A stretch of 64,000 bases of DNA from the IMG/VR virus record IMGVR_UViG_3300048672_000219, positions 1 through 64,000 of that record, one strand, 5' to 3'. Numbering within the stretch: position 1 is the first letter of the stretch; each line of letters starts with the position of its first letter. A model generated the notes under the pieces. The model saw nothing but the letters and a program-made list of their open reading frames with translations. It was not told the DNA's origin and ran no database searches. This DNA comes from a virus. Made by a program: the position numbers and the translations under genes. This document shows, piece after piece, positions 13,855 through 57,928 of this stretch.

Positions 13855-13925
13855 AGTATTTTCCTTTATAGTAAATTGTGTGAAAGCCCACACAGGCGTT
13901 TGCCGAACACACGGCAATTCTTAAA

Positions 13926-14216
13926 TTAAATACAGCTATGTACAAGCCAGCCAATTGCCAAAACACCCAGTGGCTCTACAAGAGAATAAATAATACGTTC
14001 TTGATGATTTGGCTCAGGCTCTACAACCCACACTTTAACATGTGTGAAATATTTGATAGTTGCTACAAAACCAACAGCTTGCCAGAAGCCTAGCATTGGC
14101 ACAGAAACAATTGGCATAATAAACCAAGCCCAGAGTTGTTGTGCAGCGTAACCACCAAGTAGGAATGCGATAGTGCCAATGGTAATGTAGCCTAGAATTT
14201 TTACAAATGTGTTCAT
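13926..14216 (-). CDS. Membrane protein
   Basis: Three hydrophobic segments, LWAWFIMP...LGFWQAVG. Confidence 0.6.
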   Translation of the reverse strand: MNTFVKILGYITIGTIAFLLGGYAAQQLWAWFIMPIVSVPMLGFWQAVGFVATIKYFTHVKVWVVEPEPNHQERIIYSLVEPLGVLAIGWLVHSCI

Positions 14217-14234
14217 GATTCTCCTTTAAATGTT

Positions 14235-14348
14235 TGGTCAGCCATTTGGAATCGAACCAAAATCAGTGACTCCTCCACAACCACTAAACATGAAACATCT
14301 CAATCATAGTGGTTGCTGTCACTAGCTTTGCCATTAAGCTATTAGCTG
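14235..14348 (-). ncRNA. tRNA-like RNA with D-arm, T-arm and CCA, anticodon loop replaced by a long hairpin
   Basis: CAGCTA/TGGCTG-A-CCA acceptor; GCTT-AATGGCA-AAGC D-arm; TTTGG-TTCGATT-CCAAA T-arm; AGTGAC/GTCACT extended by CAACCACTA/TAGTGGTTG. Confidence 0.65.
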
Positions 14349-14354
14349 GTTGTT

Positions 14355-14441
14355 TGGTAGAACGTGGAGCATCGAAGCTCTCGACTTCCTTCTCACTGTT
14401 TAACGTCGGTGCTTTAGAAGAACACTGTGAGGACACGTCCC
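14355..14441 (-). ncRNA. tRNA-like RNA with Arg(UCU)-type anticodon hairpin, no D-arm, possible pseudoknot
   Basis: GGGACGT/ACGTTCT-A-CCA acceptor; GTGTT-CTTCTAA-AGCAC hairpin; GAGC-TTCGAT-GCTC T-arm; crossing pairings CTCAC/GTGAG and CGAC/GTCG. Confidence 0.65.
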
Positions 14442-14453
14442 AATGTAACGCTC

Positions 14454-14483
14454 ATTGTACAGCAATTTTAATGTGTATGTCAA
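14454..14483 (-). promoter_or_regulatory. sigma70-like promoter for the tRNA-like pair
   Basis: TTGACA-N18-TACAAT about 12 nt upstream of the first RNA. Confidence 0.65.
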
Positions 14484-14960
14484 GCTCTTTATAGAATCCT
14501 TTTGCTGAGAAAGCTTCCACTAATTGTCCAATGACTTCCAGCAAGAACAAGAGATGTTCCTAAATTGACAATAGGAATAATACTTATTAGTGTCAGAGGA
14601 ATCAGCCCACCAACAGTGACATAACCAAAGTCTTTCTTAGCTGCCCACAGGAGCAGAGGAAGAGAAATTAGAACACTAAGAATGTAAAGAAAGATAATCA
14701 TTTGTCATTCTCCTGTCCATCAATCTTACTCAGCTTATAAACTCCATATTTGCAATCCTTGTTCTTGCTCTGAAGATGCTCAGAGACAGACTCAGCCTCT
14801 TCAATAGTGAAGAAAATATTCATACTGTATTCATCTTTCCAAGTAAATCCGTGATAAGGGTCTTCAATCATCACGCAAAACTTATCTTTTGTGGACTCTA
14901 CAAACTCTCGTTCTTTCAGAGGTAGAGCTTGCACCTGAGCTTTTATAATTTCATAGTCGT

Positions 14961-15482
14961 TCATTTGTTGCCCTCTGGAGTATACCAATGCTTAAACTCA
15001 TCAGCAAAATATTTCACTTTGTTCATATCATAAGCAATGCTCACGCCATCCTTGCCACGACCTTGAGAGGCTTCATAAGCACGGCGGCAAGCCTTGACAA
15101 TATTGCACAGATCGTTGTCGTTTCCAAAAGCAGCACGAAGAATGTCCCCAAGTTCACATTCAAGCTGCTCACCTTTCTTGTTGACGATAGTGAGCTTGTA
15201 ATAGCTGCTGCTACCACCGTCAGATACTACTGGAGAGTTTTCCACAATTTCTACAGGTGTAGCAAAATTGAACTCTTTTAAGTGATGGTCTTCATAATAT
15301 TCACGATCATCACGATTACTGTAAGTAATCAAGCCATCTCCATAAGAATCAAAATAATAACCACCTTTATTGTACTCATCTACAGGTGGACTTCCCCACT
15401 TCCCACCCAAACTCTTCATATAATTTAGAATGCTCTCAGCTTCCTCATCCGTATTTGCCCACATTTTAAATGGCTTGTGCAT
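14961..15482 (-). CDS. Hypothetical protein with DUF3310-like C-terminal domain
   Basis: DGGSSSYY...ECELGDI...NIVKACRR...YDMNKVKYF. Confidence 0.45.
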   Translation of the reverse strand: MHKPFKMWANTDEEAESILNYMKSLGGKWGSPPVDEYNKGGYYFDSYGDGLITYSNRDDREYYEDHHLKEFNFATPVEIVENSPVVSDGGSSSYYKLTIVNKKGEQLECELGDILRAAFGNDNDLCNIVKACRRAYEASQGRGKDGVSIAYDMNKVKYFADEFKHWYTPEGNK

Positions 15483-57341: not shown

Positions 57342-57416
57342 TCCCCGTTAGTTTAACATGGTAAAATCTCGCCTTGTACGCGAGCATAGCGGTTTCGAGC
57401 ACTGCACGGGGAACCA
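57342..57416 (+). tRNA. tRNA-Thr(UGU), somewhat atypical
   Basis: TCCCCGT/ACGGGGA-A-CCA; anticodon arm CTCGC-CTTGTAC-GCGAG; T arm GCGGT-TTCGAGC-ACTGC. Confidence 0.75.
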
Positions 57417-57422
57417 AACAAT

Positions 57423-57496
57423 GCAGCCAATCTAAAGGTTAGACGCCAGTGCTCCACACTGCACAGGGAAGATTTCGATTATCTCTGGCTGCTCCA
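57423..57496 (+). tRNA. Degenerate tRNA-Gly(UCC)-like
   Basis: GCAGCCA/TGGCTGC-T-CCA Gly-type acceptor; loop GCTCCAC lacks U33; abnormal D and T arms. Confidence 0.55.
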
Positions 57497-57604
57497 TTTT
57501 CTTCTACCTTAGAAGACTGTTAGCCTTACGGCTATCGAGGCTTGGAGAACAAGCTAATGAGTGAGGTGGAATTCCTTGCCGAATATTAACACAAAGGAGA
57601 GAAT

Positions 57605-57838: not shown

Positions 57839-57928
57839 GGAAGATTGGCTGAGAGGTTTAAGGCAGCACTCTTGAAAAGTGTCGAACTTTAAAAGGTTCC
57901 GTCCGTTCAAATCGGACATCTTCCGCCA
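57839..57928 (+). tRNA. tRNA-Ser(UGA)
   Basis: GGAAGAT/ATCTTCC-G-CCA; GCACT-CTTGAAA-AGTGT anticodon arm; long variable arm. Confidence 0.9.

What the first reader, a model, noticed from the sequence alone, without database searches (positions are those of the whole stretch)
14235..14483. Pair of remodelled tRNA-like RNAs with their own promoter, far from the tRNA cluster
Seen (minus strand): promoter TTGACA-N18-TACAAT, then two CCA-ending RNAs 6 nt apart. RNA1 (14441-14355) has an acceptor stem, T-arm and a clean Arg(UCU)-type anticodon hairpin but no D-arm. Instead CTCAC/GTGAG and CGAC/GTCG pairings cross each other (pseudoknot). RNA2 (14348-14235) has D-arm, T-arm and acceptor, but its anticodon loop is replaced by a ~50-nt extended hairpin. 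Each lacks what the other has, and both carry a similar purine run (GAAGGAAGTC vs GGAGGAGTC). Inference: tRNA mimics such as decoys for anticodon nucleases, synthetase or ribosome modulators, or a two-piece RNA. Stable CCA-ended non-tRNA species are known from T-even phages, but I cannot assign these to a family.
Basis: partly seen in the sequence, partly recalled or inferred. Interest (0 to 1): 0.74.

Follow-up and report, generated by a model that had tools for sequence, protein, structure and literature searches.

The report
Rewired arginine tRNA plus tRNA mimic
One promoter of an uncultured freshwater phage drives two tRNA-sized RNAs: an arginine tRNA whose core is a pseudoknot instead of a cloverleaf, probably a working tRNA that gene finders miss, and a tRNA-shaped RNA with a long hairpin where the anticodon should be, which has no known relatives or function.

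Summary
On the minus strand a near-consensus promoter (14483-14454) precedes two CCA-ending RNAs 6 nt apart.

RNA1 (14441-14355) is not an orphan mimic. It belongs to a widespread, unannotated phage family of tRNA-Arg(UCU/CCU)-like genes. These have no D hairpin; the strand after the acceptor stem pairs with the variable-region loop.
- A covariance model built from 19 homologs, without the window, finds RNA1 full-length (72.4 bits, E 5e-19).
- On 21 sequences, 99.4% of cells pair and 17 of 25 pairs show changes on both sides. The crossing helix was not in the model and still pairs throughout.
- Aeromonas phage AhSzw-1 has many ordinary tRNAs but only Arg(ACG). Its two rewired copies carry CCU and UCU, so a decoding role is likely.

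This scan had already found the family on other DNA. I found no paper on it.

RNA2 (14348-14235) has an ordinary tRNA body (Rfam tRNA 28.6 bits, cut-off 29) with a 47-48-nt hairpin in place of the anticodon loop. No homolog turned up. In an independent metagenome contig it is unchanged, while the neighbouring gene differs at 13 sites. I read it as an anticodon-less tRNA look-alike of unknown function. The two-piece idea found no support.

The parts
14454..14483 (-). Sigma-70-type promoter TTGACA-N18-TACAAT, about 13 nt upstream of the first base of RNA1
   Evidence: 11 of 12 consensus matches. In run X2 the only listed difference here is 14476, in the spacer. That transcription starts a few bases before 14441 is inferred.
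14355..14441 (-). RNA1: an 87-nt rewired, pseudoknotted tRNA-Arg(UCU) with encoded CCA
   Evidence: Model R1, built without the window, scores 72.4 bits, E 5.2e-19, positions 1-87 of 87, and this is its only hit in the window. All 25 pairs form.
14416..14418 (-). Anticodon UCU inside the loop CUUCUAA (14414-14420)
   Evidence: Sequence. The loop is CUUCUAA in 19 of 21 family rows; one has GUUCUAA and one CUCCUAA.
14427..14431 (-). CUCAC, the 5' strand of the rebuilt D-stem (pseudoknot helix)
   Evidence: Pairs with GUGAG at 14392-14396. This helix was not in the model, yet it is 100% paired in 21 sequences and 3 of its 5 pairs change on both sides.
14392..14396 (-). GUGAG, the 3' strand of the rebuilt D-stem. 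It lies in the variable-region loop and is followed by the purine run AAGGAA.
   Evidence: AAGGA follows this strand in 19 of 21 rows; two Vibrio phages have UCUGGAU. Collection bias applies: see the full report.
14382..14408 (-). Variable-region hairpin CGAC...GUCG, which crosses the D-stem helix
   Evidence: Helix 4 is 98.6% paired. The window's copy differs from the family's commonest pair on both sides at two pairs.
14349..14354 (-). 6-nt spacer AACAAC between the CCA of RNA1 and the first base of RNA2
   Evidence: Spacers of the same kind: AACAAU after the window's tRNA-Thr and after the rewired tRNA in Vibrio phages D260 and D430; AAUAAU between the two AhSzw-1 copies.
14235..14348 (-). 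RNA2: a 114-nt tRNA-shaped RNA with encoded ACCA end, D arm and T arm, a 6-bp acceptor stem and no anticodon loop
   Evidence: RF00005 scores 28.6 bits against a cut-off of 29, model positions 1-71. No difference is listed in the contigs of runs X2 and X3 that cover it.
14271..14317 (-). 47-nt insert replacing the anticodon loop: a long irregular hairpin (10 bp, a 4x4 internal loop, 4 bp, a tetraloop) followed by unpaired GGAGGA
   Evidence: Folds; limits. No repeat or antisense match above chance in the phage genome.
13926..14216 (-). Downstream 96-aa membrane-protein gene with its own Shine-Dalgarno sequence, probably on the same transcript
   Evidence: ORF. PHROG phrog_2169 'membrane protein', E 1.6e-12. 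No terminator-like site between RNA2 and the gene. Co-transcription is inferred.

Best explanation
The promoter at 14483-14454 makes one transcript that starts with two tRNA-shaped RNAs and probably runs on into the membrane-protein gene. The host's tRNA-processing enzymes would cut both RNAs out: RNase P at the 5' ends, and 3' trimming back to the encoded CCA. This step is inferred from the acceptor/T-arm geometry and from the short AACAAY spacers that also follow ordinary tRNAs.

RNA1 is an arginine tRNA for AGA codons built on a non-cloverleaf plan. The acceptor, anticodon and T arms are ordinary. The D hairpin is missing. Five bases after the acceptor stem (CUCAC) instead pair across the anticodon arm with GUGAG in a long variable-region loop, crossing the small helix CGAC/GUCG. 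The purine run AAGGA(A) that follows may stand in for the D-loop.

RNA2 is an ordinary tRNA body whose anticodon loop is replaced by a 47-nt hairpin plus GGAGGA. It cannot read a codon. I take it to be a kept, functional tRNA look-alike that occupies some protein recognising the tRNA body or its CCA end.

Shown: the anatomy, the family membership and covariation of RNA1, and the conservation of RNA2 in close variants. Inferred: processing, charging with arginine, decoding, and any role for RNA2.

The confidence of 0.6 is for the whole statement. By part: RNA1 belongs to the family, about 0.95; RNA1 is a working decoder, about 0.65; RNA2 is a functional look-alike rather than a dead or split gene, about 0.45.
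For: RNA1 membership:
- Model R1, built from 19 homologs without the window, hits 14355-14441 at 72.4 bits, E 5.2e-19, full length, and nothing else in the window.

RNA1 structure:
- On the model-fitted alignment of 21 sequences, 99.4% of 511 cells pair and 17 of 25 pairs change on both sides.
- 0 of 500 shuffles reach any of the five measures; slid controls pair at 40-54%.
- The same holds on a plain MAFFT alignment of the 19 without the window: 99.3% paired, 13 of 25 pairs.
- The crossing helix was not in the model and is still 100% paired, with CUCAC/GUGAG, CCCAC/GUGGG, CCAGC/GCUGG, CCUGC/GCAGG, CCCUC/GAGGG and CCGAC/GUCGG variants.
- The window is the most divergent member. It alone changes both sides at pseudoknot pair 12:50, at two variable-stem pairs and at T-stem pair 68:76.

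Decoder reading:
- The anticodon is UCU in 20 of 21 sequences and CCU in 1.
- AhSzw-1 carries the CCU and UCU copies in tandem. All 37 RF00005 matches of its whole genome lie in the stretch I scanned with ARAGORN. There the only Arg is ACG, and none of the three extra matches shows a UCU or CCU anticodon (one reads UCC, one has a 9-nt loop holding CAU, one I could not read).
- Acinetobacter phage Stupor has no ordinary Arg tRNA among its 7 matches.
- G1.U72 occurs in 17 of 21 sequences and is shared with T4's ordinary tRNA-Arg, as read.
- AGA plus AGG make up 256 of 869 Arg codons in 92 long ORFs of this phage. No other Arg tRNA was found in it.

RNA2:
- RF00005 aligns it end to end at 28.6 bits.
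- Run X2, from another study, has a contig over 13900-14470 with 16 listed differences (the piece table counts 17). Fourteen lie at 13941-14218, of which 13 are in the downstream gene and one in the gap before it. Two are in RNA1 and none in RNA2.
- The two in RNA1 keep the fold: U.G becomes U-A in the anticodon stem, and G becomes A in the A-rich linker.
- Run X3's contig over 14170-14369 lists none in RNA2.
- By my own arithmetic, the chance that 14 of 14 differences miss 115 of 434 bases is about 0.013.
Against: - No RNA data: no listed sequencing run is on record as RNA. Discrete transcripts, their ends, charging and decoding are all untested.
- The window's T-loop has 6 nt instead of 7, and its pair 53:61 is C-G, which could disturb the elbow.
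- The discriminator base varies across the family: G in 12, A in 6, U in 3.
- From recall, the main E. coli ArgRS identity base A20 sits in the D-loop, which has no clear place here.
- Nine of the 19 model sequences were collected with a pattern that fixes AAGGA and the T arm. Invariance of those columns is therefore partly built in. The sequences are related, so the shuffle controls overstate significance.
- The three closest viral relatives lack both RNAs and carry no Arg tRNA, so the pair is dispensable in this lineage.
- RNA2 has no homolog beyond near-identical variants, so its fold has no covariation support.
- Its conservation rests on one contig with 17 differences and one 205-nt contig. 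Many of the neighbouring gene's differences may be silent.
- A recently disrupted tRNA gene would look the same.
Confidence: 0.6

Rival explanations
1. RNA1 is not a decoder. It is a decoy or resistant stand-in that soaks up an anticodon nuclease or another enzyme aimed at tRNA-Arg(UCU), and is never used on the ribosome.
For: The anticodon loop is kept exactly as a nuclease would need it, while the body differs from every host tRNA. Phage tRNAs that evade tRNA-targeting defences are described in papers of which I saw only the listing and the start of the abstract (PMC10264068, PMC11464382, PMC11555353). The window's 6-nt T-loop is odd for a ribosome substrate.
Against: A decoy need not keep a 7-bp acceptor stem, N73 and CCA in all 21 members. 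It also need not come as a CCU plus UCU pair exactly where the ordinary set lacks the AGR readers. The two roles do not exclude each other.
Confidence: 0.2
2. RNA2 is a dead tRNA gene. An ordinary phage tRNA lost its anticodon loop to a 47-nt insertion and is drifting, carried along only because it lies between a used tRNA and a used gene.
For: No homolog in any collection searched. One base is missing from the 3' acceptor strand, and the score is just under the Rfam cut-off. The closest relatives do without it.
Against: No listed difference over 114 nt in two independent contigs, while the adjoining 319 nt differ at 14 places. The insert is itself a well-formed long hairpin, and the whole RNA folds better than shuffles (z = -2.39, 5 of 200). 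D-loop GG, T-loop UUCGAUU, U8 and A14 are all intact. tRNA bodies with 30-60 nt in place of the anticodon loop recur in 23 distinct forms among viral contigs, several inside tRNA clusters.
Confidence: 0.25
3. RNA2 is a split tRNA gene. The hairpin is a small intervening sequence that is cut out and the halves are rejoined, giving a working tRNA.
For: Intron-bearing pre-tRNAs also show an extended anticodon helix (recalled). ARAGORN reports a tRNA here when introns are allowed. Earlier notes of this scan describe phage tRNA genes split by unclassified inserts (e1-5803131).
Against: No choice of cut leaves a normal loop. The bases flanking the hairpin, A and GGAGGA, supply no U33, and the canonical 37/38 position would give G33 and C37 (read). 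From recall, 47 nt is far below group I intron size. Rfam finds no intron or ribozyme here. ARAGORN's own solution needs a 20-nt intron at 32/33 and a forced extra arm. No bulge-helix-bulge motif is visible in the folds.
Confidence: 0.07
4. RNA1 and RNA2 work as one two-piece RNA, each supplying the arm the other lacks.
For: Tight linkage (6 nt apart, one promoter) and similar purine runs, GAGAAGGAAGUC and GUGGAGGAGUC.
Against: RNA1's family is complete without RNA2. Among the homolog loci read, neighbours differ: a rod-like RNA in D260 and D430, a second rewired tRNA in AhSzw-1, other tRNA-like genes in Stupor and some viral contigs, and an ORF or a terminator elsewhere. The best RNA1-RNA2 duplex is matched by 49 of 300 shuffles, and co-folding gains nothing.
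Confidence: 0.03

Closest known systems
Ordinary bacterial and phage tRNA-Arg(UCU), for example the T4 gene (NC_000866 71173-71247)
   Same: 7-bp acceptor stem with G1.U72, a discriminator base and CCA; the anticodon loop CUUCUAA; a T arm with UUCGAU(U); position among phage tRNA genes.
   Different: RNA1 has no D hairpin. One D-stem strand lies after the anticodon arm, so the fold is a pseudoknot, not a cloverleaf. RF00005 and ARAGORN do not report it. In the window's copy the T-loop has 6 nt.
The rewired phage tRNA-Arg family as noted earlier by this scan on other DNA. It is not in Rfam or in GenBank annotation, and I found no paper on it.
   Same: RNA1 matches a model of that family over its full length and keeps every helix. 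Like one earlier case, it has its own consensus promoter.
   Different: It is the most divergent member I collected: U-A in the pseudoknot helix, CGAC/GUCG instead of UAGC/GCUG, an extra A after AAGGA, and a shortened T-loop. It is followed by an anticodon-less tRNA body.
T4 stable RNAs species 2 and 1 (rnaD, rnaC)
   Same: Two stable non-tRNA species sit 6 nt apart directly behind a tRNA-Arg in a phage (annotation). Their function has been unknown for decades (recalled).
   Different: No sequence or model similarity. R1 does not hit them and the Rfam tRNA model does not match them, whereas RNA2 nearly passes it. Here the first RNA of the pair is itself the Arg tRNA.
Engineered 'tRNA scaffold' RNAs (Ponchon and Dardel; PMC3753655 seen only as a search listing)
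   Same: A tRNA body whose anticodon stem carries a foreign hairpin, which by recall makes the RNA stable and processed like a tRNA. RNA2 has exactly this layout.
   Different: That is a laboratory design. Nothing shows that RNA2's hairpin is a cargo with a function of its own.
YrlA / bacterial Y RNAs with a tRNA-like domain
   Same: tRNA look-alikes without an anticodon that are thought to act by binding proteins.
   Different: By recall, in YrlA the RNA ends lie on the long helix and the acceptor-like stem is closed. In RNA2 the ends are on the acceptor stem, with CCA. No Rfam match.
Armless mitochondrial tRNAs (nematodes, mites; recalled)
   Same: Working tRNAs that lack a D hairpin.
   Different: Those simply lose the arm and shrink. 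RNA1 keeps a D-stem-like helix by rewiring and is longer than a normal tRNA.

Membership tests
   72.4 bits, E 5.2e-19, model positions 1-87 of 87. The other members score 90-110 bits.
   CUCAC/GUGAG and CGAC/GUCG all pair. Family helices 2 and 4 are 100% and 98.6% paired.
   CUUCUAA at 14420-14414.
   Only indirect: the CCU and UCU copies fill the gap in the AhSzw-1 tRNA set.
Canonical tRNA (Rfam RF00005), applied to RNA1 | Score at or above 29 bits; cloverleaf with a D arm | tested here: not met
   No RF00005 match to RNA1 at E up to 10 or in the genome search. ARAGORN is silent.
Canonical tRNA (Rfam RF00005), applied to RNA2 | Score at or above 29 bits | tested here: not met
   28.6 bits, E 1.5e-4, model positions 1-71. 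This is a near miss caused by the insert and one deleted acceptor base.
Canonical tRNA (Rfam RF00005), applied to RNA2 | A 7-nt anticodon loop | tested here: not met
   48 nt stand where the model has 6 loop positions. They fold into a closed hairpin.
T4 species 1 / species 2 RNAs (rnaC, rnaD) | Sequence or structure similarity to the T4 genes | tested here: not met
   R1 gives no hit at L006 4909-5172. The Rfam tRNA model does not match rnaC or rnaD. Only the 6-nt spacing and the place behind a tRNA-Arg are alike.
tmRNA | tRNA-like ends with G3.U70 and an internal tag reading frame; detection by ARAGORN or Rfam | tested here: not met
   ARAGORN -m finds nothing. No Rfam tmRNA match. RNA2 has G3-C70. 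RNA1 does have G3.U70 (14 of 21 in the family) but carries a normal anticodon arm.
tRNA with a group I or bulge-helix-bulge intron | Removal of the insert leaves a normal anticodon loop; an intron fold is recognisable | tested here: not met
   No intron family in Rfam searches. The flanks give no U33. No bulge-helix-bulge motif in the folds.
Phage modules of anticodon-less tRNA look-alikes beside a peptidyl-tRNA-hydrolase-like gene (earlier notes) | A neighbouring Pth-like or RF-1-domain gene | tested here: not met
   No PF01195 or PF00472 match at E up to 1 in the whole 83-kb record.

The most novel reading that the evidence does not exclude
The pair is a small early 'tRNA-defence kit'. RNA1 is a working arginine tRNA whose rewired core hides it from host enzymes that recognise the normal D-arm and elbow. 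RNA2 is a sponge with a tRNA body and a CCA tail but no anticodon. It draws off defence enzymes that attack tRNA acceptor ends or bodies, for example tail-cleaving nucleases of the kind reported for Cas12a3 (PMC12851939, seen as a listing and the start of the abstract only), without disturbing translation. If so, non-cloverleaf tRNAs and anticodon-less tRNA bodies would be two sides of one arms race over the tRNA pool.
Probability: 0.12. Interest if true: 0.85.

Novelty: new variant of a known kind. Interest (0 to 1): 0.7.

Why it matters
If RNA1 is charged and used, the cloverleaf is not the only natural plan for a cytoplasmic-type tRNA. A whole class of phage tRNA genes would then be invisible to tRNAscan-type tools and to GenBank annotation. 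About 344 of 50,697 phage records match a two-copy query, and none of the 60 listed rows shows a tRNA annotated under the match. That would change counts of phage tRNA sets and codon-compensation analyses. It would also offer a natural test of which parts of the tRNA core ArgRS, EF-Tu, RNase P and the ribosome really need.

Several carriers are cultured (Aeromonas phage AhSzw-1, Acinetobacter phages Stupor, Kimel and B9, and Vibrio phages of the D260 type), so the question can be settled at the bench.

RNA2 adds a clean example of a natural 'tRNA scaffold' without an anticodon, made together with such a tRNA. Its target, if any, would point to a tRNA-binding host factor that matters during infection.

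Tried and rejected
Rfam: gathering thresholds on the whole window gave nothing. E-value mode on 13900-14800 and 14150-14420 gave only chance-level matches. The tRNA match to RNA2 appeared only on a 121-nt stretch and in the genome search.

Related loci:
- blastn of 901 nt against phage records gave no match at 1e-5.
- Synteny search with the 347-aa downstream protein found three viral relatives. None has the RNAs at that place, by blastn or by model R1.
- The same protein query found no relative in metagenome contigs.

Patterns that led nowhere:
- An exact 24-mer of RNA2 in viral contigs: 0.
- My pattern was mis-specified: it could not match the main family type. Its single hit (L011) is not a tRNA-like locus.
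- GGAGGA-N-GAT-N3-T-arm found only one family, in gut-type viral contigs, which the pattern had already found (58 stretches). The shared GGAGGA may therefore be coincidence.
- An RNA2-specific pattern: 0 in metagenome contigs and 0 in genome contigs.

Other checks:
- Sequencing runs: no RNA holder listed.
- Repeats or antisense targets of RNA2 in the phage genome: the best are 12-nt matches at E 0.15-0.43, which is chance level.
- RNA1-RNA2 pairing: none above shuffles.
- Pth-like or RF-1 genes: none.
- Pfam on seven neighbouring proteins: no family.
- PAK_P3 ncRNA1 and ncRNA2 (PMC10914365, passages read) lie at the other end of that genome. I did not compare them further.
- tmRNA and the mitochondrial-type ARAGORN search: nothing.

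Literature: searches for a phage tRNA without a D arm or with a pseudoknotted core and for T4 rnaC/rnaD listed no paper on this fold. I judged these by titles and the starts of abstracts only. Supplements are closed and subscription journals are not covered.
Full report
WHAT IS THERE

The window is the first 64 kb of an 83.4-kb viral record, estimated 97% complete. Its family-A DNA polymerase is 54% identical to that of Aeromonas and Pseudaeromonas phages and 46% identical to that of the PAK_P3 group.

On the minus strand, TTGACA-18-TACAAT (14483-14454, 11 of 12 consensus positions) is followed by two RNAs that end in CCA:
- RNA1, 14441-14355.
- A 6-nt spacer, AACAAC.
- RNA2, 14348-14235.
- Then a Shine-Dalgarno sequence and a 96-aa membrane-protein gene (13926-14216; PHROG 'membrane protein').

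No terminator-like site lies between RNA2 and that gene. The RNAs are therefore probably cut out of the head of an mRNA, which is inference. The surrounding genes belong to the replication module: an exonuclease, a DNA methyltransferase and the polymerase.

RNA1 IS A MEMBER OF A LARGE COVARYING FAMILY

By itself RNA1 folds no better than shuffled sequence (z = -0.17), and neither Rfam nor ARAGORN reports it.

How homologs were found:
- A permissive blastn gave a 72%, 87-nt match (E 0.7) in an unannotated gap of three Vibrio phages.
- The pairwise alignment showed changes on both sides of pairs in the acceptor stem, the anticodon stem, the crossing helix and the small variable-region helix, with an identical anticodon loop.
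- Searching on from that copy and from Aeromonas phage AhSzw-1 gave 344 phage records at E up to 0.01: Vibrio 304, Acinetobacter 32, Aeromonas 3, Escherichia 2, and Salmonella, Salicola and 'phage' 1 each. In none of the 60 listed rows is a tRNA annotated under the match.
- A motif scan found 17 stretches in IMG/VR.
- The same motif occurs in 1 of the 185,579 species genomes. The family is essentially phage-borne.

Membership and structure:
- I built model R1 from 19 distinct homologs without the window. It finds RNA1 at 72.4 bits, E 5.2e-19, over all 87 positions, and nothing else in the window.
- On the MAFFT alignment of the 19 sequences, 99.3% of cells pair and 13 of 25 pairs change on both sides.
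- On the model-fitted alignment of 21 sequences, including the window, 99.4% pair and 17 of 25 pairs change on both sides. No shuffle out of 500 reaches any measure, and slid controls pair at 40-54%.
- The crossing helix was not part of the model. It is still paired in all 21 sequences, with six sequence variants.

Caveats:
- Nine of the 19 model rows were collected with a pattern that fixes AAGGA and the T arm.
- The alignment is fitted to the nested helices.
- The rows are related, so shuffles overstate significance.
- The seven Acinetobacter-type rows are misaligned by two columns in the small helix and counted as gaps there, although by eye UACU/AGUG and UACG/CGUG pair.

The window's copy is the most divergent member. 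It has U-A in the crossing helix, CGAC/GUCG in the small helix, an extra A after AAGGA, and a 6-nt T-loop closed by C-G.

DECODER OR DECOY?

For a decoder:
- All 21 sequences keep a 7-bp acceptor stem, a discriminator base and CCA. All keep U33 and A37. Twenty have UCU and one has CCU.
- The CCU copy sits 6 nt before a UCU copy in AhSzw-1.
- All 37 RF00005 matches in the whole AhSzw-1 genome lie in the 16 kb I scanned. ARAGORN names 34 tRNAs there, and the only Arg is ACG. Of the three extra matches, one reads UCC, one has a 9-nt loop holding CAU, and one I could not read. The two rewired genes supply exactly the missing AGR readers.
- Stupor, a T4-like phage, has no ordinary Arg tRNA. T4 has one at the corresponding place.
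- G1.U72 (17 of 21) is shared with the T4 tRNA-Arg, and one viral-contig member has the same acceptor stem as T4 (read).
- In this phage AGA plus AGG are 256 of 869 Arg codons in a rough set of 92 ORFs. No other Arg tRNA is found.

Against:
- There are no RNA data.
- The discriminator base varies.
- The place of the ArgRS identity base A20 (recalled) is unclear.
- The window's T-loop is short.

G3.U70 is present in 14 of 21 sequences, including the window. By recall this is the AlaRS identity pair, so mischarging should be tested. It is absent in 7 members, so it cannot define the family.

RELATIVES WITHOUT THE PAIR, AND CLOSE VARIANTS WITH IT

The three closest viral contigs have a 64-76% identical neighbouring protein. 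At this place they carry only small membrane-protein genes, in a different order. They have no R1 hit, and their tRNAs are only Thr, Pro, Gly and Leu. The pair therefore looks like an acquired cassette with its own promoter.

In an aquatic metagenome from another study (run X2), a 2,783-nt contig covers 13900-14470:
- 14 listed differences lie at 13941-14218. Thirteen are in the downstream gene and one, at 14218, is in the gap before it.
- Two are in RNA1, at 14412 and 14404. By my mapping these turn U20.G30 into U-A and change G38 to A in the A-rich linker. Both are harmless to the fold.
- None is in RNA2.
- These 16 are the differences the table lists; the piece table counts 17, and the table leaves out differences close to a contig end.

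A 205-nt wastewater contig (run X3) covers 14170-14369 and lists differences only in the downstream gene. A third difference is unlisted. Because the table leaves out differences close to a contig end, I infer that it lies near an end.

RNA2

- The Rfam tRNA model aligns RNA2 from base 1 to the discriminator (28.6 bits, cut-off 29, E 1.5e-4).
- U8, the D arm UAGCUUAAUGGCAAAGC, a 5-6-bp anticodon stem, a 4-nt variable region and the T arm UUUGG-UUCGAUU-CCAAA are all in place.
- One base is missing in the 3' acceptor strand, giving a 6-bp stem with A7 unpaired.
- 48 nt stand in place of the loop.
- The insert is one unpaired A, then a 10-bp helix, a 4x4 internal loop, a 4-bp helix and a tetraloop, then unpaired GGAGGA.
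- It offers no 7-nt loop and no U33, so RNA2 cannot decode. I see no cut that would restore a normal loop.
- It has no repeat or antisense target in the phage genome, no pairing with RNA1, and no homolog in phage records, earlier notes, metagenome contigs or genome contigs.

A looser pattern used the D-loop, then 56-76 nt, then the T-loop. It found 88 stretches in IMG/VR, in 23 distinct forms. Nine representatives were scored, and all pass the Rfam tRNA cut-off as 103-131-nt 'tRNAs' with 30-60 nt in place of the anticodon loop. Several sit inside tRNA clusters. None is a clear homolog of RNA2; L058 is the nearest. The pattern itself imposed the D-loop and T-loop. RNA2 is thus one instance of a recurrent but heterogeneous design.

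Earlier notes of this scan describe similar anticodon-less look-alikes, some always beside a Pth-like gene. This phage has no such gene.

COMPARISON WITH KNOWN THINGS

- T4 rnaD and rnaC share only the layout: they lie behind tRNA-Arg, 6 nt apart. Neither R1 nor the tRNA model matches them.
- tmRNA, YrlA, and group I or bulge-helix-bulge introns fail the tests listed under membership.
- The nearest analogue to RNA2's design is the laboratory 'tRNA scaffold'.
- For RNA1 the nearest relative is an ordinary phage tRNA-Arg(UCU), from which it differs in topology.

VERDICT

RNA1 is a new and unusually divergent member of a rewired tRNA-Arg family. The family is unpublished as far as my four searches show, judged by titles and the starts of abstracts, and this scan has already noted it many times on other DNA. 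RNA2 is an orphan tRNA body without an anticodon. It is conserved in close variants, and its function is unknown.

Noticed in passing
window 57342-57497 (+): The tRNA-Thr(UGU) that ARAGORN finds ends in CCA. It is followed by a 6-nt AACAAU spacer and then a third unannotated CCA-ending tRNA-like RNA (about 57423-57496). This RNA has a 7-bp acceptor stem GCAGCCA/UGGCUGC, a mini D hairpin CUAA-AGG-UUAG, a T arm AGAU-UUCGAUU-AUCU, and only a 5-nt loop where the anticodon should be. So the phage has a second 'tRNA plus companion' pair. The motif CCAAACA follows RNA1, RNA2 and tRNA-Thr (3 of 22 occurrences in the genome).
   Followed up: partly
window 57342-57416 and 57839-57928 (+): Neither of the two tRNA genes ARAGORN calls (Thr-UGU, Ser-UGA) reaches the Rfam tRNA gathering score in the window scan or E 0.01 in the genome search, while RNA2 does reach E 2.3e-5. 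All tRNA-like genes of this phage seem atypical.
   Followed up: no
L005:2589-2690 and L013:504-595 (Vibrio phages D260, D430): Six nt (AACAAU) behind the rewired tRNA-Arg lies a 92-nt RNA ending in CCA. It folds into one long rod (z = -3.19, 0 of 200 shuffles) and is overlapped by an annotated 'hypothetical protein'. It is not similar to RNA2.
   Followed up: partly
L005:2413-2490 (Vibrio phage D260): Another unannotated tRNA-like gene lies directly upstream of the rewired tRNA-Arg. It has an acceptor stem with G1.U72, a T arm, CCA, an odd anticodon arm with a 9-nt loop, and no clear D arm.
   Followed up: no
L009:700-780 (Acinetobacter phage Stupor), also in Kimel (L010): Eight nt behind the rewired tRNA-Arg lies an unannotated tRNA-like gene with a CUGUUAA loop on a 4-bp stem and an enlarged D region. 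In Kimel a 'hypothetical protein' is annotated on the opposite strand across the rewired tRNA itself.
   Followed up: no
L045:11051-11160 and about 57 further IMG/VR loci (L046...L132): A nearly invariant 110-nt tRNA body (Rfam tRNA 53.9 bits) carries about 44 nt in place of the anticodon loop, ending in GGAGGA at the same distance from the T arm as in RNA2. It occurs in 58 viral contigs of 5-56 kb. A second family (L059, L070, L082, L090, L097, L104, L120) has a covarying inner hairpin and GAAGGAGG.
   Followed up: partly
window 14489-14726: One low-depth contig of run X2 joins 14489 to 14726, skipping 236 nt, which is the 70-aa membrane-protein ORF just upstream of the promoter. That ORF seems optional in the population.
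   Followed up: no
window 13926-14701 compared with L002-L004 3400-3950: The small membrane-protein genes flanking the RNA pair occur in a different order and number in the three closest viral relatives. The RNA pair sits exactly at this variable joint.
   Followed up: partly
window 14961-15482 (-): A 173-aa protein with no Pfam family has a weak PHROG match (E 1.1e-4, residues 67-161) to a family named 3'-phosphatase/5'-polynucleotide kinase, an RNA-repair type of enzyme. It lies about 0.5 kb upstream of the RNA pair.
   Followed up: partly
L133:4231-4317 (Spirabiliibacterium pneumoniae contig): This is the only bacterial genome among 185,579 species with the main-type motif. It carries a full-length rewired tRNA-Arg (109.8 bits), presumably in a prophage.
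   Followed up: no
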